In this document: in pieces, positions 6,244 to 29,723 of the stretch | Numbering within the stretch: the first letter of the stretch is position 1 | Layout of the letters: each line of letters begins with the position of its first letter | DNA from: a bacterium | Lineage (GTDB): Bacteria; UBA8248; JACPRG01; G963555815 | NCBI GenBank assembly: GCA_965261595.1 | Contig: CBDHDG010000002.1 | Span: 289,550-353,549 of the forward strand | DNA: 64,000 bases | Reading direction: 5' to 3' | Translations under genes and position numbers: made by a program | The notes under the pieces: generated by a model | What the model saw: the letters and a program-made list of their open reading frames with translations, nothing else | Told to the model about the DNA's origin: nothing | Databases searched by the model: none

Positions 6244-6273
6244 AAGCTAGCAAACCGGGGAAAAAGGTGTCAA
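6244..6273 (-). promoter_or_regulatory. Putative sigma70 promoter of the leftward nitrilase-LLM-amidohydrolase-cupin operon
   Basis: Minus strand TTGACA-N18-TAGCTT with an extended TGn; a back-to-back TTGACA lies at 6277-6282 on the plus strand. Confidence 0.45.
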
Positions 6274-11072: not shown

Positions 11073-11151
11073 TGTCCCGGGTGGATTCCGCCCAAGGCGG
11101 GAGAACGGTCGATCCCATCATCCACGGTGGTCAGACCGAAAGAGGGAGGAC

Positions 11152-13784: not shown

Positions 13785-14004
13785 GGACGGTGAAACCCGG
13801 TGTTTTCAAAACAGGTAGGGAGGGCGTTTGGGTCGGTTGACCCCTTGCCCGCCTTCTCTGCAATTTGTGAAGTGTCAATTTATTTTGGAGGCGCTACACT
13901 TAGGAAGCGGTCGGCCATGAGCTTTTAGCCGTCAGGCGCCCACAGGGGCCTTGCGGGGACGATGGACGGCCGCCGGTCCGGAAGGGGAAGGAGGAGACAG
14001 GGCG

Positions 14005-15303: not shown

Positions 15304-15532
15304 TGCCTGGCCGGCATGCGAACCCTCGGCCGGAAGGGGGGAGGGGGGGGGGAGGGGAGAGGGGGGACGATTCGGACCTCGAACCGAAAAACCGTTCCCC
15401 CGAGCCGACGCCCGTTCTTTATCAGGTTGCGGAAAAACACCTGATCCGTGGACCGCCACAACGGATTTCCAGATCGCCCCGCTGTCGGATTTGTCTGACT
15501 GAGCCTGCCGGAGCAAGGCTCAAAATCCCGGA

Positions 15533-16024
15533 TCACAATCCCGTGGCATTCCAGTCCGATGCGGGCGCTTCGGGCGCGGGGGTGCACCCCGCGGTCTTGA
15601 CGCCGGTGATGGCGCAGTACTCATCCTTGTCCGAGGAGTCGCCGCTGATGCCGACCGCGCCCACCACATTGCCGGAGGCGTTACATATCAGAACGCCGCT
15701 GGGAACGGGGATGAAGCGGCCGGCGGACGCCGCCGCCAGCGCGCCCTGAAACGCCGGACGGTCCTTGAGGCGGTCTCTGATGGCGCGGCTGGGCATGCCC
15801 ATTCCCAGGGAGGCCCAGGCCTTGCCGACGGCGATGTCCACGCGCAGGATGCCCGATCCGTCCTCCCGCTTGAGGGCGATAAGGTTCCCCCCGGCGTCGA
15901 GCACCGCCACCGTCAGAGGCAAAAGCCCCGCTTCCCGTCCCGCCGCCAACGCGGCGTCGATGATGGAGGAGGCGGATTCCAGCGGGAGGCCCGTCTGAAT
16001 GTTCGTCAATTCACGCTCGGACAT
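15533..16024 (-). CDS. GlcG/HbpS-family heme-binding protein
   Basis: VAVLDAGGNLIALKREDG, AVGKAW, VGAVGISG, DEYCA. Confidence 0.88.
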   Translation of the reverse strand: MSERELTNIQTGLPLESASSIIDAALAAGREAGLLPLTVAVLDAGGNLIALKREDGSGILRVDIAVGKAWASLGMGMPSRAIRDRLKDRPAFQGALAAASAGRFIPVPSGVLICNASGNVVGAVGISGDSSDKDEYCAITGVKTAGCTPAPEAPASDWNATGL

Positions 16025-16211
16025 GTCAAGGCTTCTCCTTCCAGTCCAGAAGTTGGTGAGAAATCCCGGCTATTGAGGATGGCATAAATCATGTCCTGCA
16101 CAGAACGGCTCACGAAAATATCCGGAAGATTTCCCGACACTTCTCGCCGGACACAGATAGGCCATTAATAAAACAAGGCTCGATAACTTTCTGGAAGGAA
16201 AGGAGGGGAAT

Positions 16212-17126
16212 TCACATCAGACCCAGGAGGCGGGCCGCGTTATTCCCGAGAATCTTTGCGATCGCTTCCCGGGGGATCTCCGGCAAATCGAGCCGCTTCG
16301 CGACCTGGTTGATCTGTTCGTAAGTCGCCATGAAATTCTTCGGTATGCAAAGGCGGTACTCACTGCCGTATAACACCCGGTCCAGTCCCACGAGGTCCTG
16401 ACACATCAAAAGCGCCCGGAGGAGCGTCTCGGGGGGGAGGGTGCACCAGTAGGCCATCTCCGCATAGAAATTCGGATGCTTGGCGACCAGGCACACCCCT
16501 TCCTCCCACCAGGGCCATCCGGTGTGGGCGACAATCACTTTGAGATCGGGGTAGCGGATGCCCACCGGGTCCAGCAGGTGAGGGGGTTGGAATTTCATCG
16601 GGGCGTTCACGCTCGGCGTCCAGCCCATGTGGAACTGGACGTAGATGCCGTACGCGATGGCCCGCTCATACAGCGGATACAGGGTCGGGTCGCCGGGATC
16701 GAAGTGGTTGTACGTGGGCATGAGCTTCAGGGCCTTCATGCCCAGTTCGTTGATGCAGCGGTCGAGCTCGTCCAGGGCTTCGCTGATGCCGCGCATGGGG
16801 TCGATGCCCGCCACGGCGATGAACTTGTCCGGATGCTTTCGGGCGAGGCCCGCGACGTAATCGTTGGGGACGTGGGGGTTCGGCTTTTCGGGATGGGGGG
16901 AGGTGCGCCGGAAGTCGTAGGCCATGATGCACGCAAAGTCCAGCCCGGCTTCCTCCATGTCGCGCAGCAGCGTTTCGGGGCTGACCGGCTCCCGGGTGGC
17001 GGGCCGCTCCCGGCGGGTTCCGTCCGGGTCGTACGTATACTTCCAGGGGCGATAAAGCTCCCGCCCCCACCAGAGCGGGATGTGATTCGGGACCTCCCCG
17101 ACGTGAACATGAACATCGATTCGCAA
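16212..17126 (-). CDS. Amidohydrolase_2 family protein
   Basis: IDVHVH, LYPLYE, FHMG, YPDLKVIVAHTGWPW, HPNFY, RVLYGSEY; TTG start. Confidence 0.88.
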   Translation of the reverse strand: MRIDVHVHVGEVPNHIPLWWGRELYRPWKYTYDPDGTRRERPATREPVSPETLLRDMEEAGLDFACIMAYDFRRTSPHPEKPNPHVPNDYVAGLARKHPDKFIAVAGIDPMRGISEALDELDRCINELGMKALKLMPTYNHFDPGDPTLYPLYERAIAYGIYVQFHMGWTPSVNAPMKFQPPHLLDPVGIRYPDLKVIVAHTGWPWWEEGVCLVAKHPNFYAEMAYWCTLPPETLLRALLMCQDLVGLDRVLYGSEYRLCIPKNFMATYEQINQVAKRLDLPEIPREAIAKILGNNAARLLGLM

Positions 17127-17359
17127 CGAAATCCCTCTCCGTAGGCGCGCCTTGATCCCGCCGTGAAATGAAGCGCGGTTGGCCGCGGCCGACCTCCGGT
17201 GTCCTTCGGTTCCTTAGCGGGTTGGGGAAATATGATTTTCGAGCTTGAGCGGATTTCTCACGCGTGTCGGGCGACTCCTGTTTGGAACGACGGCTTGGGG
17301 GGGGGGAGCCTCCGGATGAGTCGTTCGCCCGCGTGTTTCAGCTTCCTGTTCGAAAATGC

Positions 17360-18085
17360 TTATGCGGTTTCGAACCGCGCCGGCTCCTGAATCCCGCGCC
17401 GCGCATACCACTCCGCGACCAGATCCTCGGAGTCGACCACCACCCCGGTGTGCAGCGAGATCAGGAAAAGCGCCGCCTCTTCCGCCTCCTCCGAATAGCC
17501 CGCCGTGACATCCTGCGGGACGACGACCCGGAACATCCGGTTGGCCGCGTCGAACGCCGTGCACAAATCACAGCAATCCGTGTAGGCCCCGATGATGACC
17601 ACCGTCTTCTTGTCCAGGTTTCGGAGGAGGTATTCGAGGTCGGTCGGGTAGAAGGCGCTCAGCCGCTTTTTCGTCCGGACGTAATAGTCGCCGGGCGCCT
17701 CCTCGATGCTGAGATCGACCCATTTGGTCCCCTCCAAGCTGTGGTTCTTCTGGTTCTCATTGGGGCCGATGTAGGCCTCATACAAGGACCGCCAGTTGGA
17801 TGGGCTGATCCCGTTCACATCGTCGATCCCGTCGGCCCGCAGCCAGAGCTGGACGTGAATCATGGGAACGCCGCACTGGCGCGCCGCCCGGGCGAACCAG
17901 TTGTGCCGCTCGATGATGGCCTGCCCCCGCGGAGCGGGACAGGTGACATCGGGCTCATCTCCAAGATGCCCCCGATGCATGTCGATGCTCACGACGGCGC
18001 ATTGGGAAGGGTCCACCCAGTCGGAAAACACTTCCGGCATGTCCCGTTTTTTCTTGAGGAAATAGCACTTCATTGGAGTCATCAT
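17360..18085 (-). CDS. Isochorismatase-family cysteine hydrolase
   Basis: Asp-Lys-Cys triad: SIDMH, KKRLSAFYPTDL, YTDCC; ATG 18085 after GGGGGA. Confidence 0.88.
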   Translation of the reverse strand: MMTPMKCYFLKKKRDMPEVFSDWVDPSQCAVVSIDMHRGHLGDEPDVTCPAPRGQAIIERHNWFARAARQCGVPMIHVQLWLRADGIDDVNGISPSNWRSLYEAYIGPNENQKNHSLEGTKWVDLSIEEAPGDYYVRTKKRLSAFYPTDLEYLLRNLDKKTVVIIGAYTDCCDLCTAFDAANRMFRVVVPQDVTAGYSEEAEEAALFLISLHTGVVVDSEDLVAEWYARRGIQEPARFETA

Positions 18086-18440
18086 GGTTTCGTCCCCCTG
18101 CACTGTTGCCTGAAATGATTGGGTCCCAGGACCCCATGAAGGCTTGTCGGCTTTCAGGAAGAAAAGGCCCGCTTGGTTCACTCAAATGGAAACCCGGCGC
18201 CTCGCGCTTCAAAACCGTTGTCCACCCTTGCGGAATCCACGCAAGCTACCACAGGCCCATTCGGATTCCAAACCCGGTCGTGAGCCGATCGCGGCTCCGG
18301 CCGGCCTCGCTGCAACCCGGCCTCAAACGTCATAACGGACGGCTTTTTCGCGCTTGGCTGACCGCCTCTCTCCGGCTTCTCGTGGTTGAATTGGAGAGAA
18401 TTAACCGAATCGAAATGAAACGCTTGATACGGGATGCCTC

Positions 18441-18560
18441 ATGACGGCCACGACGAAAACCGCCGATTTGCTGATTGAGGGTGCAACCGTCATGACGATG
18501 GACGTCGAGCGACGGATCTTTTCCGATGGCACCGTCGCCATCGGCGGAGGCCGCATTGGT
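18441..18560 (+). pseudogene. N-terminal fragment of an MTA/SAH-deaminase-like amidohydrolase
   Basis: ADLLIEGATVMTMDVERRIFSDGTVAIGGGRI resembles the N-terminus of 42274..43677 (VDLLITDADHLVTMDKKRRVIRDGSVAVQGGRI); similarity ends after ~40 codons. Confidence 0.65.
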
Positions 18561-18849
18561 CTGCCCCCCGGAACCTGGTGCAGAAATGGGGCAAGTCCAG
18601 AATTGGGATTTCCAACTTTCAATTGGACCGATTTGAGGGGGGCGGGGCAACCAAATAATTGACAGCGGGACGTTCATTTTGTGGTATTCTGAGAGCATCT
18701 TGAGAGGTTTTTGGATTGACAACCGACCGGTGGCCTCCATCGGGCATTGGCGGGAGAAAGTCTAACCCAGTTCCGATGGGGACTGAGGGCCTGAGCAGTC
18801 GAAAATTAATTCTTTGCTCATCGGACAAGGTTTGAGGGGGACGAGAGAA

Positions 18850-20184
18850 TTGGCCAAGCAGGTGCGGAAAGCGATCATTCCCAAGGGATTGCCGATGCCG
18901 AAAATGCGTTATTCCCCGGGTATCCTGGCAGGACCTTGGATTTTTCCTTCCGGGCAGTTTGCATCGGACTTTTCGGCCAACGGCGTGGCCCGGGAAGCCA
19001 CGCGGGATCCCCGATGCCCCGATTTGCAGCCCAGCGAGCTTGGGTTGCAGACTCGTTACATCTTCAAGAATCTCAAAAAGGTCGTCGAGGCGGGCGGTTC
19101 CTCACTGGACCAAATTGTTCGCCTCGATCAGTTTTTTGTCCTTGAAGAGACCCCCGACGGCCACTTGGCTTCGATTGAAGATTATCTAAGTGTGCGCGAT
19201 GAAGTGTTCCCGGCTTCAAAAGGCCGGCCGACTTCAACCGGAATTCGCTGTAGCCATCTGTTGTGTAAGCCCGGCATCCTCGAAATCGACTTTGTCGCGG
19301 TCACCAACGCCAGCGGCTGGAAAAAAGAGGTCATTAACTCCAGCCGCGCGGGTGCGCCCACCGGCGGTTATAGCCATGCCGTCAAAGTGGGCCCTTATGT
19401 TTTCTGCTCCGGCGACCTTGCGAGTGATTGGGACCATGGCGTGGATCCGTCCGCCGTGACGAACAAGAATTTGTGGTTCGGCAACGACATGGACAGGCAG
19501 GCGCGATTCATCCTAGACCGTTTGAGCGTTATCCTGGAGGACGCGGGGTCGGATCTGGACCTGACCGCCAAGGCCCAGGTGTACCTCACGGCGGAAGGGA
19601 TGAAGCAGATTTATAAGCTTGAAGATGTGTGGAAAGAATATTTTCCGAAAAACCCGCCGGCGCGCACCCTCATTCCCGCCGATGGGCTCGGCGTTAAGGA
19701 TTGCATGATCGAAATCAACCTTGTCGCCGTCACCAAAGATGGCGGCATCAAGCCCAAGGCGGTCCATGCGCGGGGTGTTCCCAAATGGCCGCTTCACGAA
19801 CCCCACGCAATGCAGGCGGGCAACCTGCTGTTTCTCTCTTCCGCGTTGGCAACCGACAACAAGGGGCATTTTCCCGAAGCGCTCAAGGTCAATCCCAATT
19901 GGCCATGGTATGAGAAGTACGAAAAGCCCATCATTCAACAGATGGATTACATCCTCGGCAACGCCGAGAAAATCGTCCAGGCGGCCGGCGGCCGGGGCTT
20001 TGACAACCTCGTGCGCCGACAGTGTTTCCACACCGACTACGATGAGTTTATTCTCACTTGGGGCGTGTGGATGTCCAAATATGACCACGATGCGCCGGCG
20101 AGCACGACCATCGAAGAGGCGAACACTCCGTTGCCGGTTCCGGGAGCGACGATGATGTTGGACCTTTGGGCTTACCTCCCGTAA
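18850..20184 (+). CDS. RidA/YjgF-family protein with three tandem Rid domains
   Basis: Three repeats of the Rid pattern: YSPGILAGPWIFPSGQ...RPTST...LEIDFVA; YSHAVKVGPYVFCSG...PPART...IEINLVA; EPHAMQAGNLLFLSS...APAST...MLDLWA. Confidence 0.85.
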   Translation: MAKQVRKAIIPKGLPMPKMRYSPGILAGPWIFPSGQFASDFSANGVAREATRDPRCPDLQPSELGLQTRYIFKNLKKVVEAGGSSLDQIVRLDQFFVLEETPDGHLASIEDYLSVRDEVFPASKGRPTSTGIRCSHLLCKPGILEIDFVAVTNASGWKKEVINSSRAGAPTGGYSHAVKVGPYVFCSGDLASDWDHGVDPSAVTNKNLWFGNDMDRQARFILDRLSVILEDAGSDLDLTAKAQVYLTAEGMKQIYKLEDVWKEYFPKNPPARTLIPADGLGVKDCMIEINLVAVTKDGGIKPKAVHARGVPKWPLHEPHAMQAGNLLFLSSALATDNKGHFPEALKVNPNWPWYEKYEKPIIQQMDYILGNAEKIVQAAGGRGFDNLVRRQCFHTDYDEFILTWGVWMSKYDHDAPASTTIEEANTPLPVPGATMMLDLWAYLP

Positions 20185-20339
20185 GCCCGGCCGGCGAAGG
20201 GTCCCCGACTTTTGTGACCGGGAAGAAGAGCCCGGGGAAAATCTCAACAACCGTGAGATTCTTTATCTCACACCTTGGTGTCCGAATCGGAAGGAAATTG
20301 TTTTCGAGGAGGAACGGGCCAAAAAGGAGGGAAGAGGAA

Positions 20340-21377
20340 ATGATGAAAAAGTTGAGTTTTTTGGCGATCCTTTTGATGGGTCTTTTGTTCCTGTCCTCGT
20401 GGGCCGAGGCGGCCAAGACCATAAAGATCGCCTACATCCCTTGCGGACGGATCAATGACAAGTCCTGGAGTGAAGCGGGATACATCGGAGCCGTCCAAGG
20501 GAAGAAGGCCTTAGAGGCAAAGGGGTATAAAGTCGACCTGAAATATACCGAAAGTGTCCCGGTCGCGAAGGTGGCGGCCGCGGCACGGGACTATGCCTCC
20601 CGCGGCTACAACCCCGTCATCCTCCATTGCGGAACATTTGCCGAAGCCGGTCTTAGCGCGGCCAAGGATTTTCCCAATACCTGGATTATGACGGCGGCGA
20701 CTCCGTTGTTTTCAAAGAACGCTCCATCCTATGATCCGGCTCAGCACGAGGGTTCCTTTCTCGTGGGTTATCTTGCGGGTCTCATGACAAAAACCAATCG
20801 CGTTGGCGCGATCGGAGGCTTCAAGTTTCCGGCCCTGACCCGCCAGATAGAGGGATTCAAATTCGGAGCCCGTTACGCCAATCCGAAGGTGAAGGCGTTC
20901 AGCATCTACATCAACACCTGGGAGGATGCGGCCAAGGCCAAAGAGGCGGCCCTGGCGCAAATCGACAACGGGGCCGATGTCATTTTCGCGGCTACGGACC
21001 AGGCCGCCCGGGGGGCCTTCAGTGCCGCCAAATCGAGGAAGGTTTATGCCATCGCCAGCTACAGTGACCAGGCCTCCTTGGCACCCGACACAATCCTGAC
21101 AAGCGTCCTTTACGACACGCCGCTGTTGGTGAAACGGATGATCCTTAAAGTGGCGGACGGGACGATTGAGGGGAAATTTTATCAGTCCGGTATGGCAGAT
21201 GGGATTGGCACCTTCGCCCCTTACTATAAAATGGAAAAGGTGATTCCGGACTCCGTGAAGAAAAAAGTGGCTCAGCTAATCGAGGATATCAAGGCGGGCA
21301 GGATCAAGGTGCCAGAATATATAAAGGCAAACGAGTCAGATAAGCTCGATCCTCGAAAGGTCATCAAGAGGAAGTAA
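20340..21377 (+). CDS. BMP-family (purine/nucleoside) ABC transporter substrate-binding protein
   Basis: Signal peptide ending AEA; INDKSWSEAG, GYLAGLMTKTNRVGAIGG, GFKFGARYANP, TWED, GADVIF. Confidence 0.9.
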   Translation: MMKKLSFLAILLMGLLFLSSWAEAAKTIKIAYIPCGRINDKSWSEAGYIGAVQGKKALEAKGYKVDLKYTESVPVAKVAAAARDYASRGYNPVILHCGTFAEAGLSAAKDFPNTWIMTAATPLFSKNAPSYDPAQHEGSFLVGYLAGLMTKTNRVGAIGGFKFPALTRQIEGFKFGARYANPKVKAFSIYINTWEDAAKAKEAALAQIDNGADVIFAATDQAARGAFSAAKSRKVYAIASYSDQASLAPDTILTSVLYDTPLLVKRMILKVADGTIEGKFYQSGMADGIGTFAPYYKMEKVIPDSVKKKVAQLIEDIKAGRIKVPEYIKANESDKLDPRKVIKRK

Positions 21378-21405
21378 TCCCTGACTCTTAAACAAGCGGG
21401 TCAAG

Positions 21406-21442
21406 GGCCGGATCCGCCTCCGTTGAGGGGGCGGGTCCGGCC
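21406..21442 (+). other. GC-rich intergenic hairpin after the SBP gene (mRNA stabiliser or attenuator)
   Basis: GGCCGGATCCGCCTCC pairs with GGGGCGGGTCCGGCC; no clear U-tract. Confidence 0.5.
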
Positions 21443-21484
21443 GCTTCGCCTGGCGTCCTTTGGGCTCCTGCTTTGCCGAGATCA

Positions 21485-22105
21485 ATGACCCCATTGAAAA
21501 TCGTTCTGCAAGAGCGCTTGCTGAGGGCCCGGACCGGGGCGGCTTTTGAGGTTCGGAAGGGACAGGTCTTTCGCGTTATCGATGTCGAGGGACAACAAGT
21601 CGGGGATTTTGTCTGTTTCAAATTGGACGATCTCACCGAGCACTTTTCCCAGTCCCAGACCCGAAAGATCAACCGGTCCATCCAGATCTCCACCGGCCGG
21701 AAGCTCTGTTCCAACCTGTGCAATACGATGTTCACCATCGGAGAGGACCGGGTTGGGTTGCACGACATTTTGTATTCCCCCTGCGGGCCTCACGATTACC
21801 GTATTCTCTACGACGCGCCGGATCATCCGAGCTGCCGGGAAAACCTGAATCAGGCGCTCGCCCCGCACGGGGTTCGCCCCCACCAGCTTCCGCCCGTTTT
21901 CAACGTCTTCATGAGTTCTTCCATCGGTCCCGACGGGGAGTTGATCTGCAACGAGCCGACGTCCAAGCCGGGCGACTTTGTGGATCTCCACGCGGAAATG
22001 GACTGTCTGGTCGCCATTTCCGCCTGCCCCCAGGATTTGACCCCATGCAACGCGGGAAACCCGACTGACCTCAGACTGGAGATTTGGGAACCCGGCCCAC
22101 GCTAA
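21485..22105 (+). CDS. DUF1989 / urea-carboxylase-associated family protein
   Basis: GQVFRVIDVEGQQVGD, HDILYSPC, HPSCRENL, FNVFM, SKPGDFVDLHAEMDCLVAISACPQD. Confidence 0.9.
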   Translation: MTPLKIVLQERLLRARTGAAFEVRKGQVFRVIDVEGQQVGDFVCFKLDDLTEHFSQSQTRKINRSIQISTGRKLCSNLCNTMFTIGEDRVGLHDILYSPCGPHDYRILYDAPDHPSCRENLNQALAPHGVRPHQLPPVFNVFMSSSIGPDGELICNEPTSKPGDFVDLHAEMDCLVAISACPQDLTPCNAGNPTDLRLEIWEPGPR

Positions 22106-22156
22106 GGCGGGGGCCGTTCGATCTGTTCCGGACTGAAAGAATAGAGGAGTCCAACC

Positions 22157-22315
22157 GTGTCGAAATCCAAAAAGATCACAATCCAGGTCAACGGACAACA
22201 ATACCGATTGATCAGAGAGCTCCGGGAGAAAGGAGAACACGGAAAGACGGACGGTGAAATTGTGCGCAAGGCTTTTGCCGAATGGGGCAAGAAAAAAAGG
22301 TTGTCCCGTCCCTAG
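22157..22315 (+). CDS. Small (52 aa) ribbon-helix-helix-like protein, absent from the ORF track
   Basis: GAGGAG RBS then GTG; MSKSKKITIQVNGQQYRLIRELREKGEHGKTDGEIVRKAFAEWGKKKRLSRP* shows an alternating beta strand, a helix, then G-x-T-x-x-EIVR-x-A helix. Confidence 0.75.
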   Translation: MSKSKKITIQVNGQQYRLIRELREKGEHGKTDGEIVRKAFAEWGKKKRLSRP

Positions 22316-22407
22316 CCGGTTTGAGCCGGTGGTTCGCATAACCAAACCATATCAACCTTTTGGTTGGAGAACCTCATTTCTCCAGCCCTACGAATAGGGA
22401 TTCAGTC

Positions 22408-23352
22408 ATGGGTGAGCGCAAGCTTGTAGAAGAGTTTGTCATGGATCCGACGACGGGTCGGGCGGTTCCTATCAAGCGCGGACAGCTCCTGCGCATCGAA
22501 CAAATCGGCAAGGGTCAGTGCCTCGATTTCAACGCCTATAACCTCAACGACTATAAAGAGCAGTTCCACTGCGGGCGGACCCGGCACATGCACGGGCTCC
22601 ATCCCTCCAAGGGGGACCATCTGTGGTCGGCCCCGCCCCGGGACCGGATCATGTTCTCCATCACCGAGGACACCGTTGGCACCAATGACGTGAATTATCC
22701 CCGGTGCAGCGGGTTCCTGTATGAGTACCAGTTCGGCTACGACGGCTATCCCGCCCACAGCAACTGCCACGACATCTTCGCCGAGACCATCCGCAAATGG
22801 GGTTTGACGCCGGATGACGTTCACGATTCCTTCAATGGGTGGATGCACACGGGCGTTCGGACGAACGGAGAGCTGTTCATCGACCAGATGCTGGCCCGGG
22901 AAGGCGACCACATCGAGCTGTTGGCGCAGATCGACGCACTGGCCGTGCCCATTTGCTGCGGGGCGGACGTCTTCGCGACCAGCAATTACGAATTGAAAGG
23001 CCTCAAGGTCCAGGTCTTCGAGGGAAGCGACGAAGATCACCAACAGCTCATCGAGCAAAACTACGATCATCAGCGGACGGTGGATCTCTTCGCGATCCAG
23101 AAGATCAAGGCAAACCGTGAGTTGACGGCGGACGCCGACTATGTCGCCCAATGGCCTTGGCTGGAAGCGGTGAAAGAGCGGATTCCCGTCGAGGTTGAGC
23201 TGGACGCCCGGGAGGCCCGACTGCTGGAAGAATTGAAAAGCGATCCCGATTTCTACGATTTCACCGAGGAGGAGATCGTCCGGTTTTGCTTTTTCCGCTG
23301 GTGGGCGGAGCAATACATGCGGGGTCCGAAGCAGCTGAAGACCCTGGGTTAG
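22408..23352 (+). CDS. DUF1989-family protein with a C-terminal RHH-like extension
   Basis: GQLLRIEQ..GQCLDFN, NDVNYPRC, HSNCHD, DDVHDSFN, GDHIELLA, PICC; ~90-aa tail beyond the domain. Confidence 0.85.
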   Translation: MGERKLVEEFVMDPTTGRAVPIKRGQLLRIEQIGKGQCLDFNAYNLNDYKEQFHCGRTRHMHGLHPSKGDHLWSAPPRDRIMFSITEDTVGTNDVNYPRCSGFLYEYQFGYDGYPAHSNCHDIFAETIRKWGLTPDDVHDSFNGWMHTGVRTNGELFIDQMLAREGDHIELLAQIDALAVPICCGADVFATSNYELKGLKVQVFEGSDEDHQQLIEQNYDHQRTVDLFAIQKIKANRELTADADYVAQWPWLEAVKERIPVEVELDAREARLLEELKSDPDFYDFTEEEIVRFCFFRWWAEQYMRGPKQLKTLG

Positions 23353-23419
23353 CTCACCCGACGCCCCTCTGGTCTCTTGTCACTTTTAGGCCGATATCAT
23401 TGAGCCGTCCGAAGCATTC

Positions 23420-23448
23420 GTAGAGCGGGGAGAGCCCTCCCCGCTCTA
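23420..23448. repeat. Perfect 12-bp hairpin (REP-like, starts GTAG)
   Basis: TAGAGCGGGGAG-AGCC-CTCCCCGCTCTA. Confidence 0.55.
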
Positions 23449-23607
23449 TGTCCGATCAGGGCCGGGCTCGAACGAAACGCCGTGATCGCGGAGGACTCAG
23501 GAATGGACGCGGGCGGCTTTCTCGGATCGGGTTCGGTTTGATGGATGCCGCCGGGCTCATCGCTCGTACGATAGAATGGCGGTCCGTTCCAGTCTGAAAG
23601 GGTATGG

Positions 23608-25137
23608 ATGAAGCCGCTTTTGCAAATGCGCGACATGACCAAGCGCTATCCCGGCGTTGTTGCCAACGACCGCGTTTCGCTCGATTTGAGAGGCGGAGAA
23701 ATCCTGGCTCTGCTTGGAGAAAACGGCGCGGGGAAAAGCACCCTGATGAAGCTGCTTTACGGTCTGGAGCCCCCCGATGGGGGACAGATCAAACTTCGGG
23801 GGCAAGACCTCGTTCTGGAATCTCCGAAAGACGCCATCCGAGCCGGGATTGGGATGGTTCACCAGCATTTCATGCTGGTCCCCACGCTGACCGTTGTTGA
23901 AAACATCGCGCTCGGCCTTCCGTCCGATCGGGAGCCCTTCACCAACCTCAAGGCGGCCGAAAAACGAATCCTCGAAATCTCCGCCCAGTACCGCCTCGAG
24001 GTTGATCCCAGGGCAAAGGTCTGGCAGCTTTCCGTCGGAGAGCAGCAGCGGGTTGAAATCATCAAGGCGATTTACAGGGGAACGGACATCCTGATTCTCG
24101 ATGAGCCCACAGCGGTCTTGACGCCGCAGGAAGTTCGGGAATTGTTCTCGACGCTGCGGGCCCTGACCGGGGAGGGCCATTCCGTCATCTTCATCTCCCA
24201 TAAGCTGGACGAGGTCATGGAGATCAGCCGGCGCATTGTGGTCATGCGTCTCGGAAAGGTTGTGGGCGCGGTGGAGACGGCCGAAACGAACGCCGAGGAT
24301 CTCGTCCGGATGATGGTGGGCCGCGATGTCATGTTCAGGCTGAACAAAAAGGAGACGCGCCAAGGGGAGGTGATCCTCGGCGTCGATAACCTGGAAGTTG
24401 TGGATGACCGAAAACTTCCCGCGGTTCGCAAGGTGAGCTTCCAGGTCCATGCCGGAGAAATCTTCGGCGTCGCGGGGGTGGATGGAAACGGGCAGCGGGA
24501 GCTTGTGGAGGCCGTCGTCGGCTTGAGGCGAATCGAGGGTGGAACGACTTCGATGAACGGCCGGGACGTGACGGGCGCATCACCGAAGGACCTCCTGGAC
24601 ATGGGGTTGGGTCACATCCCCGCGGACCGCCAGAAAAGCGGGCTGATCCTGAGGTTCACCCTCGAGGAAAACGCCATCTTGATCAACCATCAATTTCCGC
24701 CCTTTTCCCGCAACGGCATCCTTCAGCGGAAGAGAATCAGGGAATTCACAGAGGACGTTATCAAGGCCTTCGACGTGCGAACCGGCACACGGGATCTCCG
24801 GGCCGGCGCCCTGTCGGGCGGGAACCAACAGAAGCTGGTCTTGGGCCGCGAGATCTCGAGAAACCCCAAGCTGCTCGTTGCGGCGCAACCCACGCGGGGG
24901 CTGGATGTCGGGGCCATCGAGTTCGTTCACGGCCAACTGTTGAGACAGCGGGACGAGGGGGTCGCCATCCTTCTGATCTCAACGGAGCTGGAGGAGCTCT
25001 TCGCCTTGAGTGACACCCTGGCCGTCATCTACAAGGGCGAGTTCATGGGCGTGGTCAGCCCTGACCGGGTTTCCGTCGAAGACGTGGGATTCATGATGGC
25101 GGGAAAACGGAACTTGCGCGGGCGTGTAGCGCAGTGA
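23608..25137 (+). CDS. Nucleoside/sugar (CUT2) ABC transporter ATP-binding protein with two ABC domains
   Basis: GENGAGKST, LSVGEQQ, LDEPT, LSGGNQQK, QPTRGLD. Confidence 0.95.
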   Translation: MKPLLQMRDMTKRYPGVVANDRVSLDLRGGEILALLGENGAGKSTLMKLLYGLEPPDGGQIKLRGQDLVLESPKDAIRAGIGMVHQHFMLVPTLTVVENIALGLPSDREPFTNLKAAEKRILEISAQYRLEVDPRAKVWQLSVGEQQRVEIIKAIYRGTDILILDEPTAVLTPQEVRELFSTLRALTGEGHSVIFISHKLDEVMEISRRIVVMRLGKVVGAVETAETNAEDLVRMMVGRDVMFRLNKKETRQGEVILGVDNLEVVDDRKLPAVRKVSFQVHAGEIFGVAGVDGNGQRELVEAVVGLRRIEGGTTSMNGRDVTGASPKDLLDMGLGHIPADRQKSGLILRFTLEENAILINHQFPPFSRNGILQRKRIREFTEDVIKAFDVRTGTRDLRAGALSGGNQQKLVLGREISRNPKLLVAAQPTRGLDVGAIEFVHGQLLRQRDEGVAILLISTELEELFALSDTLAVIYKGEFMGVVSPDRVSVEDVGFMMAGKRNLRGRVAQ

Positions 25138-26201
25138 ACCTCCAAGAGGCCGTATCCAAGCTCGTCCGGGGCCGTTTCGAAGATAAGCCGACTTCCCGGT
25201 TCCGGGATTTCCTGATCGGTCTGGGGGCGATTTCGGTCGCGTTCGTGACGAGCGGAATCCTGCTCGCTTTTTTCGGCGTCAATCCGCTCAAGGCCTACGC
25301 CCTCCTGTTTACCGGCGCATTCGGGACCCTGAACAATTTCGCCGAGACGTTGGTTCAAACCTCCCCCCTCCTGCTCACGGGGCTGGGGGTGGCCATCTGC
25401 TTTCAATGCGGCGTCTGGAATGTGGGGGTTGAAGGCCAGCTCTACATCGGGGCCATCGCGACGGTCGGTCTGGGGATCAATTTCCTGGGACTCCCGGGTT
25501 ACATGCTCATCCCGGTTTGTATCCTGGGAGCTTTCATCGCCGGCGGACTTTGGGGATTGCTGCCCGGATGGCTGAAGGTCCGCTTCGGTGCCAATGAAGT
25601 CATTGTGACCATCATGATGAACTACATCGCCATCATTTTCGCCACCTACCTGATCAGCGGCCCGTGGGCGTCCGGTTTCACCCCCGTGACCAAATCCATC
25701 GAGCCGGCGGCCCGCCTCCCCGTCCTGATATCCGGAACCCGGTTGCACGGCGGATTCGTGATCGGCCTGGTCATGGCGGCCCTTCTGGCGCTTCTGATGT
25801 ACCGGACCGTTTTGGGTTACCAGATTCGGGCGATTGGGAATAACCCTGACGCGGCGCGGTATGCGGGCGTCCCCGTCGGCAGGCGGATGATGCTGACCCT
25901 GGCCATCGGGGGCGGCGTCGCCGGGCTCGCGGGACTGGGTGAAGTGGCGGGGATTCATGGAAACATGCCTGATGGGATCTCCCCGGGCTTCGGCTTCATC
26001 GGCATCGTCGTGGCCCTCCTCGGCGGGCTTCATCCCTTGTGGATCATTCTGTCCTCCCTGTTTTTTTCCGCTCTCCTGGTGGGGGCGGAATCCATGCAGC
26101 GGGTGGTTGGAATCCCCGTTTCCTTGGTCTGGGTCCTTCAGGGATTGATCGTAATATGCATTCTGGCGAGTCGTCTTTTGACCAAAGACACATCCTCTTG
26201 A
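25134..26201 (+). CDS. ABC transporter permease (nucleoside type)
   Basis: WNVGVEGQ, NEVIVTIMMNY, GNNPDAARYAG, GFIGIVVALLG; GTGA overlap with the ATPase gene. Confidence 0.93.
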   Translation: MNLQEAVSKLVRGRFEDKPTSRFRDFLIGLGAISVAFVTSGILLAFFGVNPLKAYALLFTGAFGTLNNFAETLVQTSPLLLTGLGVAICFQCGVWNVGVEGQLYIGAIATVGLGINFLGLPGYMLIPVCILGAFIAGGLWGLLPGWLKVRFGANEVIVTIMMNYIAIIFATYLISGPWASGFTPVTKSIEPAARLPVLISGTRLHGGFVIGLVMAALLALLMYRTVLGYQIRAIGNNPDAARYAGVPVGRRMMLTLAIGGGVAGLAGLGEVAGIHGNMPDGISPGFGFIGIVVALLGGLHPLWIILSSLFFSALLVGAESMQRVVGIPVSLVWVLQGLIVICILASRLLTKDTSS

Positions 26202-26228
26202 TGGGCGAGCGGTAAGAGGAGCCGAAGG

Positions 26229-27254
26229 TTGGACATCCTTTGGGATTATTTCTTTTGGGTCTCGATCGGCGCGGCCACCATCCGAATCGCCACGCCCATC
26301 CTTTTCGCCGCCCTGGGCGAAATCATCGCGGAAGACGCCGGTTTCCTGAACATCGGCATCGAAGGGATGATGACGATGGGCGCCTGGGGCGGATTCATGG
26401 GCGCCTATTTCTTCGGCGGGGTCTGGGCGGGCGTGTTGACAGGCGCGGCCATCGGCTTCCTGATCGGTCTCCTGTCCGGGTGGCTTTGCATCGGCCGCGG
26501 CGCCGACCAGATCATCACGGGCATCATCATCAATATCTTCTGCCTGGGCATCACCAGTTTGACGTACAAAAAAACCTTCGAAAAGATGACGGATCTCCCG
26601 GAGGTCGAATCGTTCATGCCTTTTCAGGTTCCTTTCTTGGGCGATCTCGATCTTATCGGACCGATCCTCTTCCGGCACATCCCCCTGGTCTATTTCGCGC
26701 TCATTCTGGTGCCGGTGTTCTGGGTCCTGATCTTCAAGGTGTCCTGGGGGCTGAAGCTTCGCGCCGTGGGCGAGCACCCCGAGGCCGCCGACACGGCCGG
26801 GATCAACGTGTGGCGCGTCCGGTACCTGGCCGTCGGCGTGGGGGGCGCGATGGCGGCCCTCGGCGGGGCGACGCTCTCCATCGGCCAGTTGAACATCTTT
26901 ATGGATAACATGACGTCCGGCCGGGGATTCATCGCCTTGGCCGTGGTCGTGTTCGGCGGGTGGAATCCCTGGAAAGTCTTGGGCGCGTGCCTGCTTTTCG
27001 GTTTTGCGGAAGGTCTTCAATTGCGGCTTCAGGCCCTGAATGTTCCGGTTCCACACGAATTCCTGTTGATGATCCCTTATGTTCTGACGATTGTGGTTTT
27101 GGTCGGCGGCGCCGGCAAGGCGGAATATCCCGCCGCGATCAACATCCCCTATCTGAAGAAACGGACGCGGGGAAAGACGCCGTCCCAAGCGGCGTCCGCG
27201 GAGAATGGACTCCTCGAAACGGCCGATTCCCATCATTCGCGGGTGGGGTCATAA
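26229..27254 (+). CDS. ABC transporter permease (nucleoside type)
   Basis: AALGEIIAE.AG.LNIGIEG, GEHPEAADTAG, GRGFIALA, MIPYVLT. Confidence 0.93.
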   Translation: MDILWDYFFWVSIGAATIRIATPILFAALGEIIAEDAGFLNIGIEGMMTMGAWGGFMGAYFFGGVWAGVLTGAAIGFLIGLLSGWLCIGRGADQIITGIIINIFCLGITSLTYKKTFEKMTDLPEVESFMPFQVPFLGDLDLIGPILFRHIPLVYFALILVPVFWVLIFKVSWGLKLRAVGEHPEAADTAGINVWRVRYLAVGVGGAMAALGGATLSIGQLNIFMDNMTSGRGFIALAVVVFGGWNPWKVLGACLLFGFAEGLQLRLQALNVPVPHEFLLMIPYVLTIVVLVGGAGKAEYPAAINIPYLKKRTRGKTPSQAASAENGLLETADSHHSRVGS

Positions 27255-27257
27255 ACT

Positions 27258-29653
27258 GTGGATTCCGGCCAACCGCCATGGTTTGGCGCCAGGATGGAAA
27301 GAAAAGAAGACCGCCGCTTCCTCACCGGCCGGGGCCGGTATGTCGATGACATCCCTTGCCCGGGCGTTTTGCATGCGGCGTTTTTGAGATCTCCCTACGC
27401 GCACGCCCGGATTGTCGACCTCGATCTCTCCGGCTGTCAGGCCGCGGGCGCCGTCGCCGCGTACAAGGCGGAAGACCTGGGCGCGCTCTGGCGGCCTTTC
27501 CCCACCCCGGTTTTCCATCCCGATTTGCGGGGGCGGAACTGGGTTCCCCTGGCCAAGGACAAAGTCAAATTCGTCGGAGAGCCGGTCGCCGTGGCCGTGG
27601 CCGAAACGCGGGCCGCCGCGGAAGACGCCCTGGACGCCGTTCAGGCGAAGTTTGAAGTTCTCCTCGCCGCAAGCCACCCTGTCCAGGCCCTCGAACCCGG
27701 GGCGCCGCTCGTCCATGACGAGCTCGGAGATAACCTGGCCGTTCACCTGGAGGCCAAGATAGGAGACGTGGAAAAGGCGTTGGCCGATTCTCCCCATGTC
27801 GAAAAACTTCAACTGAACATCCAGTGGGGCGGCGGCGGCTCGATGGAATGCCGTGGAGTCCTGGCGCAATATGATTCCCTTTATGACAAGCTTCTCCTTT
27901 ACTCCTCCACGCAGATTCCCCACTTTGTTCGCCAGAAGCTCTCCGTTCTTCTCCAACGGCCCGAAGAATCCATAGACGTGGTCGCCACGGACGTGGGAGG
28001 GGGGTTTGGACCCAAGGCGACGTTTTACCCGGAAGAATTCGTCGTCCCTTGGCTGGCGATCCGGTTGGAGCGTCCCGTCAAGTGGACCGAGGACCGGCTG
28101 GAATACATCCAAACCGGGGTTCAGGAGCGGGAGCAAAGGCACGATGTCACCGTAGGCTTCGACGGTGAAGGACGAATCCTGGCGTTGAAGGTCCAAGCTG
28201 TCGTGGACCTGGGAGCCTATCCGGCGTGGGGGATCGTCGTGCCCATTTTGACGTTGATGTCCATCCCCGGCCCCTACAAGATCAAGCACTTTTTGGGCGA
28301 GATGGACGTCTCGCTTACACCCACCGGGTCGCGGTTGCGCCTGTCAGGGGCGCGGGACGGCCCCAGGCGACCTTCGTCATCGAGCGCACCATGGATCATA
28401 TGGCCCGGAAGCTGGGTCTCGACCGGACGGAGGTGAGGTTCAGGAATTTTGTGCAGCCCGAGGATTTCCCCTATGTGGTCGGCCTTCCGACCCGCGAAGG
28501 CGTGATGACCTATGACAGCGGTGATTACCCGGAACTTCTCCGGCGCGTCCTGGCTCAGGCCGACTATGCGGCCCTGAAAAAAAGGAAAAACCATTCCGCA
28601 AAGGAGGAGGGGGAGGGGGAGGGGGAGGGCCGTTCGGGGAAACTCCTCGGAGTCGGAATCTCCTTCAACATCGAGGAGACGGGGGCGGGCCCTTTTGAAG
28701 GCGCCAGGATACGCGTTGAGCCGGACGGACGAGTCGTGGTTTCAACCGGGGCCTGCTCTCAAGGGCAGGGCCACGAGACCATCTTTTCACAGGTCGCGGC
28801 TGACGCCCTTGACGTTTCCCCGGAAGACATCACCATCGTGGAAGGAGACACCCGGCACATCTCCTACGGGATTGGAACGCTGGCGAGCCGGAGTTCGGTC
28901 ACGGTGTCCTCCGCCATTGTGCTGGCGGCCGGGGCGCTCCGGGAAAAGGCGATTGCGCTTGCCCGGGAATACTTCGAGGCCGGCGGGGAGGACCTGGACA
29001 TGAGGGAAGGGCGGGTTTTCGTCAAAGCGGCGCCGGATCGCTCGGTGACTTTGGGAGAGCTTGCCGCGTTCTCTTTGGGCGCTTCGCCGGGGATCATCCT
29101 CCCGCCGGGGATGAAACCCGGATTGGAGGCGGAAGAGTATTTTGCGCCCGAAAAGGCCGCTTACTCCGCCGGCGCGCACGTGGCAGTGGTCGAAGTCGAT
29201 CCCGAAACCGGTTTCGTCAAGGTCCTTCGGTATGTCGCGGGACATGACTGCGGGAAGATGATCAACCCCCTTTTGGTGGAGGGCCAGATACGCGGCGGCG
29301 TGGTCCACGGATTGGGAGACGTCCTCATCGAAGAAGTGGCGTTCGATGACAGCGGCCAGCCGTTGGCCTCCACCTTTTTGGATTATCTTCTCCCTCTTGC
29401 CTCGGACGTCCCCGCGATTGAAACCCTTTCCATGGAAACCCCCTGCCCCGATAACCTTGTCGGGGTCAAAGGGGCGGGGGAGAGCGGGACAATCGCCGCG
29501 GTGGCCGCCATCGTTTCAGCCGTCGAAGATGCCCTGGCGCCCCTGGGGATCGAGATTCGGGAATCTCCCGTCACGCCGGCGAGATTGAACGAGCTGATTC
29601 GGGGCAAGGAGAGAACCGAAGATGAAAAACGCCCTTCCGAACGGCAATGTTGA
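27258..29653 (+). pseudogene. CoxL-like/xanthine dehydrogenase-family Mo large subunit, frameshifted near 28310
   Basis: Frame 1 has RKEDRRFLTGRGRYVDD, RSPYAHA, VGGGFGPK...PGPYKI...EMDV. It continues in another frame as AYTHRVAVAPVRGAGRPQ, SQGQGHET, GVKGAGESG. The loop is not the form-I CODH AYRCSFR. May be a consensus error. Confidence 0.85.
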
Positions 29654-29723
29654 AGCCGCCGGATGAGCCGTAGCGAAGAGCGGGAGAAGCGTTTCGCTCG
29701 AACCCCATCCAGCGGGAGGAAAC

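What the first reader, a model, noticed from the sequence alone, without database searches (positions are those of the whole stretch)
21485..23352. DUF1989 pair with a split ribbon-helix-helix module: an unannotated 52-aa gene matches the C-terminal tail of its neighbour
Seen: the small ORF 22157-22315 (KITIQVNGQQYRLIRELREKGEHGKTDGEIVRKAFAEW) aligns by eye with the tail of the downstream DUF1989 protein at ~23185-23301 (PVEVELDAREARLLEELKSDPDFYDFTEEEIVRFCFFRW), sharing RL..EL and T..EIVR..F..W. The free copy is basic and the fused copy acidic. Known: RHH domains are obligate intertwined dimers; characterised DUF1989 pairs (CgdAB) act with urea/guanidine carboxylase, which is absent here. Inference: a heterodimeric RHH links a metal-dependent hydrolase to a small partner, as an enzyme-coupled transcription sensor or assembly subunit, inside a nucleoside ABC operon. 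I know of no description of this arrangement.
Basis: partly seen in the sequence, partly recalled or inferred. Interest (0 to 1): 0.75.

Follow-up and report, generated by a model that had tools for sequence, protein, structure and literature searches.

The report
Split ribbon-helix-helix module on a DUF1989 enzyme
A conserved 52-residue gene encodes one half of a two-part ribbon-helix-helix module whose other half is the tail of the neighbouring DUF1989 enzyme, and relatives carry both halves in one protein, so it is probably an undescribed small subunit of that enzyme.

Summary
The 52-aa ORF (22157-22315) resembles the tail of the downstream DUF1989 protein B (22408-23352) well beyond chance: BLASTP E 4e-5, 0 of 2000 shuffles reach the score, and the family profiles align at E 1.9e-11. 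The ORF is a real gene: it has a Shine-Dalgarno site, dN/dS is 0.035-0.085, and it lies directly upstream of the tailed gene in 6 of 6 loci.

It has a ribbon-helix-helix (RHH) sequence; its profile hits the ParD RHH 5ceg at E 1e-7.

The new result is a fusion. Among 87 complete relatives of B, 17 carry a homologue of the small protein at their own N-terminus as well as the C-terminal tail. AlphaFold2 on one fused form (pLDDT 92, pTM 0.91) gives a confident beta-alpha-alpha unit at each end.

The window therefore holds the split version of an RHH-DUF1989-RHH architecture. Pairing of the small protein with B's tail is inferred from this; the complex prediction could not be run.

A DNA-binding or sensor role is unsupported, because the tail's ribbon strand carries conserved acidic residues. 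Neither Pfam nor the searchable literature describes these domains. I rate it a new variant of a known kind, of moderate interest.

The parts
21485..22105 (+). DUF1989 protein A (206 aa), untailed; likely partner subunit of B
   Evidence: PF09347, E 4e-53. Best NCBIfam match is TIGR03424 UAAP2, 137.8 bits against a cut-off of 284.7. Cys100, Cys117 and Cys181 are present. Found in 3 of 5 related loci.
22143..22149 (+). Shine-Dalgarno-like AGAGGAG, 7 nt before the GTG of the small gene
   Evidence: Read from the sequence. AGAGGAG is also present in L001 and L003, and GAAGGAGG in L002.
22157..22315 (+). Small gene, 52 aa, net charge +9: a free-standing RHH half-domain. Strand KKITIQVN, helix 1 GQQYRLIRELREKG, helix 2 DGEIVRKAFAEWGKK.
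   Evidence: dN/dS 0.035-0.085. Lies upstream of the tailed gene in 6 of 6 loci. Hits ParD RHH 5ceg at E 1.3e-4, 6.5e-5 and 1e-7. Homologous to the N-domains of fused forms.
22408..23022 (+). B, DUF1989 catalytic core (residues 1-205)
   Evidence: PF09347, E 9.2e-43. PDB 3di4 E 2.5e-21 and TMAO demethylase 9q59 E 3e-13. Cys100, Cys120 and Cys184 are present.
23023..23169 (+). B, conserved linker (residues 206-254), with DHQR and WPW motifs
   Evidence: Invariant columns in alignments A1 and A4. No family assigned.
23170..23352 (+). B, C-terminal RHH-like half-domain (residues 255-314) plus stop. Strand IPVEVELD, helix 1 AREARLLEELK, helix 2 EEEIVRFCFFRWWAEQYM. Net charge of residues 256-314 is -4.
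   Evidence: hhalign against the small family gives E 1.1e-5 and 1.9e-11. Helices at 267-277 and 287-304 in the model of B; the 10-residue blocks from 261 to 290 average pLDDT 70-84. The equivalent domain of P0017 is modelled as E326-332, H335-347, H354-370 with block means of 92-98.
18814..20184 (+). Context: triple Rid (YjgF/L-PSP) fusion, same strand
   Evidence: PF01042, three stretches. Conserved upstream in L001-L003.
20340..21377 (+). Context: Bmp/PnrA-family ABC substrate-binding protein
   Evidence: PF02608, E 7.7e-47.
23608..27254 (+). Context: ABC ATPase (23608-25137) and two permeases (25134-26201, 26229-27254)
   Evidence: PF00005 twice; PF02653 twice.

Best explanation
The 52-aa gene encodes one half of a bipartite ribbon-helix-helix (RHH) module that belongs to a subfamily of B-type DUF1989 enzymes. 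In many relatives one polypeptide reads RHH(N) - linker - DUF1989 - linker - RHH(C). In this window the N-terminal half is a separate gene placed directly in front of B, and B keeps the C-terminal half.

Because an RHH fold needs two chains to form its two-stranded ribbon, the most likely arrangement is that the basic small protein pairs with B's acidic tail. That would give a two-chain, pseudo-dimeric RHH unit fixed to the enzyme. The small protein would then be a third subunit of a Zn-type DUF1989 enzyme (B, with untailed A as a likely partner) inside an uptake and catabolic operon for an unidentified nitrogen compound.

What is shown: homology of the small protein to both the fused N-domains and the C-tails, conservation of the gene, purifying selection, co-occurrence of the two halves, and beta-alpha-alpha topology at both ends of a fused form.

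What is inferred: that the two halves pair with each other, and that the module serves assembly or closure of the enzyme rather than operator binding.
For: Real gene:
- It has a Shine-Dalgarno site.
- dN/dS is 0.035-0.085 in the 4 of 10 locus pairs where dS could be computed. Synonymous sites were saturated in the other 6.

Linkage to B:
- A homologue lies directly upstream of the tailed DUF1989 gene in 5 of 5 related loci (4 intact, 1 with an in-frame TAG) and in the window.
- Two of these loci (L004, L005) lack A and lack the Rid and ABC context. The conserved unit is therefore small+B.

Fusion evidence:
- The exhaustive HMMER search returned 1251 relatives at E <= 1e-3, of which the best 150 were examined.
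- Of 87 with a complete core, 17 have both N- and C-terminal RHH-like domains, 15 have only the C domain (like B), 2 have only the N domain, and 53 have neither.
- So 17 of the 19 proteins with an N-domain also have a detected C-domain.
- An N-domain HMM built from 21 fused forms, with no small proteins in it, scores the 7 small proteins at 23-36.5 bits. A C-tail HMM built from 41 non-B-family tails scores them at 23-37 bits.
- The small protein shares the N-domain motif [VI]x[VL]NxQQxxL[IL].

Fold:
- The profile of small proteins plus N-domains hits ParD RHH 5ceg at E 1e-7 over 42 positions.
- AF2 of fused form P0017, with 138 sequences in the alignment, gives pLDDT 92.1 and pTM 0.91. It shows E3-9, H10-21, H29-51 at one end and E326-332, H335-347, H354-370 at the other. 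The 10-residue blocks over 1-40 average 96-97 and those over 321-370 average 92-98.
- Both 7-residue stretches are assigned as strands in a monomer model, so each is paired with something in the same chain.

Other:
- Tails occur only on B-type cores. 0 of 32 tailed representatives score higher with A than with the B core, against 28 of 53 untailed ones.
- The charges are complementary, +9 and -4.
Against: - No complex prediction and no model coordinates were available. N-strand to C-strand pairing was therefore never seen directly. The strands could instead dock on the DUF1989 sheet, or pair N-N' and C-C' across an oligomer.
- The tail profile alone finds no natural RHH in the PDB. Its best hits are designed repeat proteins, and TraY scores only E 1.3. 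B's tail alone finds nothing significant.
- Pfam RHH_1 touches only 1 of 7 small proteins, at E 0.035.
- In L005 the small gene carries a premature TAG while B is intact. B can therefore persist without it, at least for a time; that copy sits between transposase genes.
- Context evidence rests on 6 loci from 4 sources, and these form three close pairs.
- The N and C HMMs used for the classification were built from many of the same proteins they classify.
- The strong basic charge and the K/T/Q/N outward ribbon positions of the free small protein would also suit a DNA-binding repressor.
Confidence: 0.6

Rival explanations
1. The small protein is an ordinary free-standing CopG/Arc-type RHH homodimer that represses the operon. 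Its likeness to B's tail reflects shared ancestry only, and B's tails dimerise with each other.
For: - It has the size of a minimal RHH repressor at 52 aa (a size comparison recalled from memory, not checked here).
- Net charge is +9, with Lys-rich ends.
- The outward ribbon positions are K6, T8, Q10 and N12, and K6, T8 and N12 are invariant in 7 sequences.
- It hits the ParD RHH.
- Fifteen complete relatives have a C-tail with no fused N-domain.
Against: - The gene sits in the middle of the operon, between A and B, not at its head.
- It follows B into two unrelated contexts.
- Its homologues are fused to the enzyme in 17 representatives, and those fused N-domains are not consistently basic, ranging from -6 to +9.
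- The promoter scan found 3 sites against 2.7 expected.
- No conserved operator could be sought, because gene order upstream differs between loci.
Confidence: 0.2
2. Subunit-exchange switch. The small protein homodimerises and binds DNA, and B's acidic half-RHH captures it into a heterodimer that cannot bind DNA. Enzyme level or ligand state would then feed back on transcription.
For: - Basic free half and acidic fused half.
- Acidic outward residues on the tail strand (E262, E264, D266), with Glu frequent there in other tails.
- Homology of the two halves.
- There is precedent for RHH domains on catabolic enzymes acting as autorepressors, as in PutA (PMC5293562; abstract start seen in the listing).
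Against: There is no evidence of DNA binding. The fused relatives hold both halves permanently in one chain, which argues for a constitutive pairing rather than an exchange. No operator was identified.
Confidence: 0.1
3. The small ORF is a ParD-type antitoxin of a toxin-antitoxin pair.
For: The best PDB matches are the ParD antitoxin entries 5ceg and 6x0a.
Against: - The match covers only the RHH part (chain residues 1-48 of 93). The small protein ends there and has no extension beyond the RHH.
- The downstream gene is a DUF1989 enzyme in all 6 loci, and no ParE-like ORF is adjacent.
Confidence: 0.02
4. The small ORF is a decayed remnant: the former tail of A cut off by a stop codon, or a chance ORF in GC-rich DNA.
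For: In the window and in L001 the small ORF is in the same frame as A, and tblastn of B joins the two across the gap.
Against: - Two stop codons (TAA and TAG) lie between A and the small ORF.
- In L002 and L003 the frames differ.
- The ORF has its own Shine-Dalgarno site and start codon, and dN/dS is 0.035-0.085.
- It is present without A in L004 and L005.
- No fused form longer than 91 aa was found close to it: 15 candidates, none scored.
Confidence: 0.03

Closest known systems
PutA (trifunctional proline utilization A)
   Same: A catabolic enzyme carrying an RHH domain on the same polypeptide (PMC5293562; abstract start seen in the listing).
   Different: PutA has one N-terminal RHH that homodimerises and binds put operators. 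Here there are two different half-domains, one at each end or one on a separate 52-aa chain. The C-terminal half has an acidic ribbon face. No DNA binding is shown. The enzyme family is DUF1989, not PRODH/P5CDH.
TraY-type tandem RHH (two RHH repeats in one chain forming a pseudo-dimer)
   Same: Two non-identical RHH half-domains would make one RHH fold. That TraY works this way is recalled from memory. TraY 9f0x appeared only as a weak hit, E 1.3.
   Different: In TraY the repeats are adjacent and bind DNA at oriT. Here they flank, or are split from, a roughly 200-aa enzyme core. One representative (P0031) does have two adjacent N-terminal repeats before an untailed core.
ParD/CopG/Arc/MetJ RHH proteins (PDB 5ceg ParD)
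   Same: The closest solved sequence relative of the small protein and the N-domains. The strand, the QQ at the start of helix 1 and the G-x-x-T/S turn all align.
   Different: There is no toxin partner and no extension beyond the RHH. The gene is tied to an enzyme gene instead.
CgdAB carboxyguanidine deiminase (DUF1989 pair, TIGR03424/TIGR03425)
   Same: Two adjacent DUF1989 paralogues. A is nearest to UAAP2 and B to UAAP1. CgdAB biochemistry is recalled from memory; only the title of Schneider et al. 2020 was seen, in a reference list, and the paper is not held.
   Different: Scores are far below the equivalog cut-offs (137.8 against 284.7, and 69.9 against 205.95). No carboxylase or allophanate hydrolase is in the window. 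The TIGR profiles are 198 and 233 positions long and do not extend over the last ~100 residues of B.
TMAO demethylase Tdm and the DUF1989 structures 3di4, 3oru and 3siy
   Same: Same core fold (E 2.5e-21 to 3e-13; Foldseek E 4.7e-20 for the fused-form model). The three-Cys Zn site is described in PMC12560246 (passages read). B's C120-C184 and A's C117-C181 are 64 residues apart, as are Tdm C279 and C343.
   Different: None of these matches covers B beyond residue 209, so none shows an equivalent of the tail.

Membership tests
Ribbon-helix-helix superfamily (CopG/Arc/MetJ/ParD) | Beta-alpha-alpha sequence and topology of about 45 residues | tested here: met
   The small-family profile hits ParD 5ceg at E 6.5e-5. 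With the N-domains added, the hit is E 1e-7 over 42 positions. The AF2 model of fused relative P0017 shows E-H-H at both termini, with block-mean pLDDT of 92-98. The tail is assigned through homology to the small family, E 1.9e-11. On its own it finds no natural RHH in the PDB.
Ribbon-helix-helix superfamily (CopG/Arc/MetJ/ParD) | Two chains or half-domains intertwine, and their strands form one antiparallel ribbon | tested here: inconclusive
   Both strands are assigned 'E' in a monomer model. No coordinates were available, and the complex prediction never ran. The N and C halves co-occur in 17 of the 19 proteins with an N-domain, and in 6 of 6 split loci.
Ribbon-helix-helix superfamily (CopG/Arc/MetJ/ParD) | Sequence-specific DNA binding through the ribbon | not testable with these tools
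   The small protein's outward positions are K6, T8, Q10 and N12. The tail's are E262, E264 and D266. No operator was identified.
DUF1989 (PF09347) | Match to the Pfam model above its gathering score | tested here: met
   A scores 179.9 bits and B 146.2 bits against a cut-off of 27.
DUF1989 (PF09347) | Three-cysteine Zn site | tested here: met
   A has C100, C117 and C181; B has C100, C120 and C184. C120 and C184 are invariant in alignment A1. The spacing of the last two matches Tdm C279-C343 (PMC12560246). Which residue corresponds to which is inferred from spacing and from the 3di4 alignment.
CgdAB carboxyguanidine deiminase (TIGR03424/TIGR03425 equivalogs) | Score above the NCBIfam equivalog cut-offs | tested here: not met
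   A scores 137.8 against 284.7. B scores 69.9 against 205.95.
CgdAB carboxyguanidine deiminase (TIGR03424/TIGR03425 equivalogs) | Genomic association with guanidine/urea carboxylase and allophanate hydrolase | tested here: not met
   Neither was found among the 46 larger window ORFs scanned with Pfam. No guanidine riboswitch lies in 15000-30000.
ParDE-type toxin-antitoxin | An adjacent toxin gene, and an antitoxin with a toxin-binding extension beyond the RHH | tested here: not met
   The 52-aa protein ends with the RHH. The neighbours are DUF1989 genes in all loci.
PutA-like enzyme with an autoregulatory RHH | RHH covalently joined to a catabolic enzyme | tested here: met
   Met in 17 fused representatives, and for B's C-terminal half.
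PutA-like enzyme with an autoregulatory RHH | The RHH binds operators of its own operon | not testable with these tools
   Needs EMSA or ChIP.

The most novel reading that the evidence does not exclude
A DUF1989 subfamily uses a heterotypic RHH as a regulated joint. The enzyme-borne acidic half-RHH captures a free basic half-RHH that would otherwise homodimerise on DNA. Transcription of the uptake and catabolic operon would then be set by exchange of RHH subunits between a repressor and an enzyme. In this locus the two halves are separate genes, which makes the exchange possible.
Probability: 0.1. Interest if true: 0.8.

Novelty: new variant of a known kind. Interest (0 to 1): 0.55.

Why it matters
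DUF1989 is a large, mostly uncharacterised metalloenzyme family; alone found 1251 representatives at 50% clustering.

This work gives one subfamily two terminal RHH-like domains that Pfam did not report in any of 24 members. It also shows that the N-terminal domain can be a separate 52-aa gene. That provides a concrete structural hypothesis and a small subunit that anyone expressing these enzymes would probably need to include.

It would also be a natural RHH fold built from two different chains, one of them part of an enzyme. It shows as well that very small ORFs inside operons can be detached protein domains.

Tried and rejected
The job was not sent on. There was no usable answer. Binding is therefore untested.
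- AF2 of B itself with 8 sequences was poor (pLDDT 44.3) and is used only for the two tail helices.
- Foldseek of the fused-form model found only DUF1989 cores. Five matches had E <= 0.001, all from 3di4, 3siy and 3oru. It cannot judge the terminal domains.
- B's tail alone and the tail profile found no natural RHH in the PDB.
- The protein-atlas look-ups gave only weak leads. RHH_1 clusters scored 0.91 for the small protein. The best score for the tail was 0.83, which is chance level.
- tblastn of B against plasmids matched 396 records, none covering 80% or more of the query, so none has the tail.
- A word-based search for longer proteins containing the small protein scored none of 15 candidates.
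- My profile for the exhaustive search was meant to cover the tail only. It became a whole-length B profile of 316 positions. That was useful, but it is not a tail-only search.
- Looking for an operator by aligning upstream regions failed, because the binding-protein and Rid genes are in a different order in L002 and L003.
- Promoter and terminator scans were at background.
- Rfam found nothing credible in 15000-30000: one match at 21.4 bits against a gathering score of 50.
- The ParD-antitoxin and A-tail-remnant readings were considered and rejected (see the rival explanations).
- Schneider et al. 2020 on CgdAB is not held.
The gene context of the 15 C-only representatives stayed unchecked.
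Full report
**What is in the sequence**

On the + strand lie DUF1989 gene A (21485-22105, 206 aa), a 52-codon ORF (22157-22315, GTG start) and DUF1989 gene B (22408-23352, 314 aa). A and B match PF09347 at E 4e-53 and 9.2e-43. The small ORF matches no Pfam or NCBIfam family above cut-off. AGAGGAG lies 7 nt before its GTG. The Pfam DUF1989 match covers B residues 13-178, and about 100 further residues of B are not covered by any DUF1989 model.

**Is the resemblance real?**

Yes.
- BLASTP aligns small residues 7-52 with B residues 261-307, at E 4e-5 for the single comparison.
- The Smith-Waterman score is 56. In 2000 shuffles of the small protein the mean was 25.3, the sd 3.9 and the maximum 47, so 0 of 2000 reach it.
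- The small-protein family (7 sequences, A3) aligned by hhalign to the whole-length B family (8 sequences, A1) picks the tail, columns 260-301, with probability 81.5% and E 1.1e-5.
- Against a profile of 18 diverse tails (A8) the probability is 97.3% and E is 1.9e-11 over 49 columns.

**Is the small ORF a gene?**

Three close homologues of 52-53 aa exist in the 5.8-billion-cluster set: 3 hits among 3 candidates.

In all five, a homologue of the small ORF lies directly upstream of the tailed DUF1989 gene.
- L001, L002 and L003 are orthologous loci with the order A-small-B.
- L004 and L005 are second copies in the same genomes as L001 and L002. They have small+B only.
- L004 lies behind a truncated NMT1-type binding-protein fragment and an FAD oxidoreductase gene. 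L005 lies between rve-family transposase genes.
- Four of the five copies are intact. The L005 copy has an in-frame TAG at the position of Q15.

Nei-Gojobori dN/dS is 0.035, 0.069, 0.066 and 0.085 in the 4 of 10 pairs where dS could be computed. In the other 6 pairs synonymous sites are saturated. Shine-Dalgarno-like sequences are kept in L001-L003.

In the window and L001 the small ORF is in the same frame as A, and tblastn bridges the two. However, two stop codons intervene and the frames differ in L002 and L003. I therefore do not read it as a readthrough extension of A.

**What fold?**

- The small protein hits the RHH domain of ParD antitoxin 5ceg at E 1.3e-4, and its family profile does so at E 6.5e-5.
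- Its sequence reads as strand KKITIQVN, helix GQQYRLIRELREKG, a G-x-x-T turn, then helix DGEIVRKAFAEWGKK.
- B's tail on its own finds no solved relative by sequence.
- A profile of 18 tails finds only designed repeat proteins, with TraY at E 1.3.
- The RHH assignment of the tail therefore rests on its homology to the small family and on structure prediction.

**The decisive finding: natural fusions**

I meant to search with a tail-only profile, but the alignment became a whole-length B profile. The exhaustive HMMER search returned 1251 representatives at E <= 1e-3, of which the best 150 were listed.

Many of these reach the end of the profile, so they carry the tail. A set of 334-391-aa proteins (plus one of 511 aa) has an additional N-terminal stretch of 55-85 residues. 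That N-terminal domain has the motif [VI]x[VL]NxQQxxL[IL]..., which is the small protein's IQVNGQQYRLI.

The HMM evidence is as follows.
- The small-family HMM hits the N-terminus of P0019 (residues 5-41, i-E 3.3e-5) and of P0017 (1.1e-3). It also hits many C-tails. These E-values are for a set of 157 sequences.
- HMMs built without any small protein or B-family member give the independent test. An N-domain HMM from 21 fused forms scores the 7 small proteins at 23-36.5 bits and B-family tails at 7 bits or less.
- A C-tail HMM from 41 other tails scores B-family tails at 38-50 bits and the small proteins at 23-37 bits.
- The N and C alignments match each other by hhalign at probability 91.8% and E 7.5e-7.
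- Adding 11 N-domains to the small family raises the ParD 5ceg hit to E 1e-7.

Classification of the 150 representatives:

| Class | Count |
|---|---|
| Complete core | 87 |
| of these: both N and C domains | 17 |
| of these: C domain only, like B | 15 |
| of these: N domain only (tails look degenerate by eye) | 2 |
| of these: neither (mostly 200-215 aa) | 53 |
| C-terminal fragments | 30 |
| of these: carrying the C domain | 23 |

Caveat: the two HMMs used for this classification were built from many of the same proteins.

Tails sit only on B-type cores. 0 of 32 tailed representatives score higher with A than with the B core, against 28 of 53 untailed ones.

**Structure prediction**

- B with its 8-sequence alignment folded poorly (pLDDT 44.3). 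Even so, it placed helices at 267-277 and 287-304, and the 10-residue blocks from 261 to 290 average pLDDT 70-84.
- The fused form P0017, with a 138-sequence alignment, folded well (pLDDT 92.1, pTM 0.91).
- Its model shows E3-9, H10-21, H29-51 at the N-terminus and E326-332, H335-347, H354-370 at the C-terminus. The 10-residue blocks over 1-40 average 96-97 and those over 321-370 average 92-98. The linkers are less confident.
- That is two beta-alpha-alpha units, one at each end. Each has a 7-residue strand that is paired with something in a single-chain model.
- I could not obtain coordinates, and Foldseek on the whole model sees only the DUF1989 core.
- Pairing of the two strands with each other is therefore an inference, although the most economical one for two RHH halves.

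The job that would have tested the small protein against B's tail never ran (see Tried and rejected).

**Most likely mechanism**

The window carries the split form of an RHH(N)-DUF1989-RHH(C) architecture. The small protein supplies the half that B lacks. Together they would form a pseudo-dimeric RHH unit attached to the enzyme.

The evidence for this is:
- co-occurrence of the halves (17 of the 19 proteins with an N-domain, and 6 of 6 split loci);
- the Rosetta-stone fusions;
- complementary charges;
- the small+B pair moving together into new contexts.

I put this at about 0.6.

What the unit does is open. I lean towards assembly or closure of the enzyme rather than operator binding, for three reasons.
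- The tail strand's outward positions are acidic (E262, E264, D266), and Glu is frequent there in other tails.
- Fused N-domains range from -6 to +9 in net charge.
- The gene sits mid-operon.

The free small protein is unusually basic, with K/T/Q/N on its ribbon face. A DNA-binding role therefore remains a live rival, either alone or in a subunit-exchange scheme with B's tail.

**The enzyme and its context**

- A and B both keep three cysteines spaced as in the Zn site described for Tdm and the DUF1989 crystal structures. These are A C100/C117/C181 and B C100/C120/C184 (PMC12560246, passages read).
- They resemble the UAAP2/UAAP1 pair but score far below the equivalog cut-offs.
- No carboxylase or allophanate hydrolase was found among the 46 larger window ORFs scanned, and no guanidine riboswitch is present. 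They are therefore not CgdAB.
- The surrounding + strand genes are a triple Rid fusion, a Bmp/PnrA-family binding protein, an ABC ATPase and two permeases.
- Nearby are an isochorismatase-like hydrolase, amidohydrolases, a UbiD decarboxylase and three xanthine-dehydrogenase-family large subunits.
- This suggests catabolism of an N-heterocycle or a related nitrogen compound. The substrate is unknown, and 'nucleoside' is only the family label of the binding protein.

**Novelty**

- Pfam reported only DUF1989 above cut-off in 24 of 24 fused or tailed members.
- Full-text search found 3 papers mentioning DUF1989, and none that also mentions ribbon-helix-helix.
- Searches for the urea-carboxylase-associated, COG3665, YcgI and UAAP1 names gave nothing relevant in the listing.
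- RHH domains on enzymes (PutA; PMC5293562, abstract start seen) and pseudo-dimeric tandem RHH (TraY, recalled) are known.
- This is therefore a new variant of a known kind, not a new category.

**Limits**

- Context evidence comes from six loci that form three close pairs.
- No binding test was possible.

Noticed in passing
window 27258-29653 (+): A xanthine-dehydrogenase-family large subunit is split into two overlapping ORFs, 27258-28436 and 28226-29653. Together they cover the hammerhead, MoCoBD_1 and MoCoBD_2 domains. This may be a frameshift, a pseudogene or a sequencing error. Two intact paralogues lie at 8793-11072 and 29724-31985.
   Followed up: no
window 18000-24000 and 52000-64000: GC content is 56-58% across the Rid-SBP-A-small-B stretch, against 64.7% for the whole window. 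The right end has 70-73% GC and encodes F-type transfer proteins (TraE, TraK, TrbI-like, TraC, TraW, TraU). The window looks like a mosaic on a conjugative element or plasmid.
   Followed up: partly
window 37146-38513 (-), 48444-49433 (-), 49567-51420 (-): A Mutator-family transposase, a DruA-like (Druantia) protein and an IS66-family transposase lie between the catabolic genes and the transfer genes.
   Followed up: no
L005 7746-7907, and its flanks at 4894-6973 and 10228-11307: The second small+B copy in this genome has an in-frame TAG at the Q15 codon of the small gene, while B (312 aa) is intact. The pair is flanked by rve-family transposase genes. This may be a decaying transposed copy, or an assembly error.
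   Followed up: partly
window 22103-22156; L001 7696-7749: The small ORF is in the same reading frame as A in the window and L001, separated by TAA, 14 codons, TAG and 3 more sense codons before the GTG. tblastn of B therefore joins A and the small ORF into one alignment. In L002 and L003 the frames differ.
   Followed up: yes
representative P0031 (324 aa) and P0037 (278 aa): These show a different architecture. P0031 has two tandem N-terminal RHH-like repeats and P0037 has one, each before an untailed DUF1989 core. In P0031 there is a sub-threshold DUF7557 hit (24.0 bits against a cut-off of 25) and a weak VapB_antitox hit.
   Followed up: partly
window 22353-22366: A short hairpin, CAACC-TTTT-GGTTG, lies between the small gene and B. 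It is listed as a terminator-like site on the - strand. The stem is kept in L001 with a different loop (CTTC), and it is absent in L002 and L003.
   Followed up: no
window 18814-18900: The mechanical start of the triple-Rid ORF (18814) is probably too far upstream. Conservation with L002 and L003 begins near the TTG of 'LAKQVRK', at about 18874. Gene order also differs: the binding-protein gene precedes Rid in L002 and L003 but follows it in the window and L001.
   Followed up: partly
window 12068-13423 and 13951-15303 (+): GRDB-like (PF07355) and glycine-reductase component B-like (PF09338) genes sit among Mo-hydroxylase, UbiD and metallo-beta-lactamase genes. This is an unusual setting for that family. 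I did not check for selenocysteine codons.
   Followed up: no
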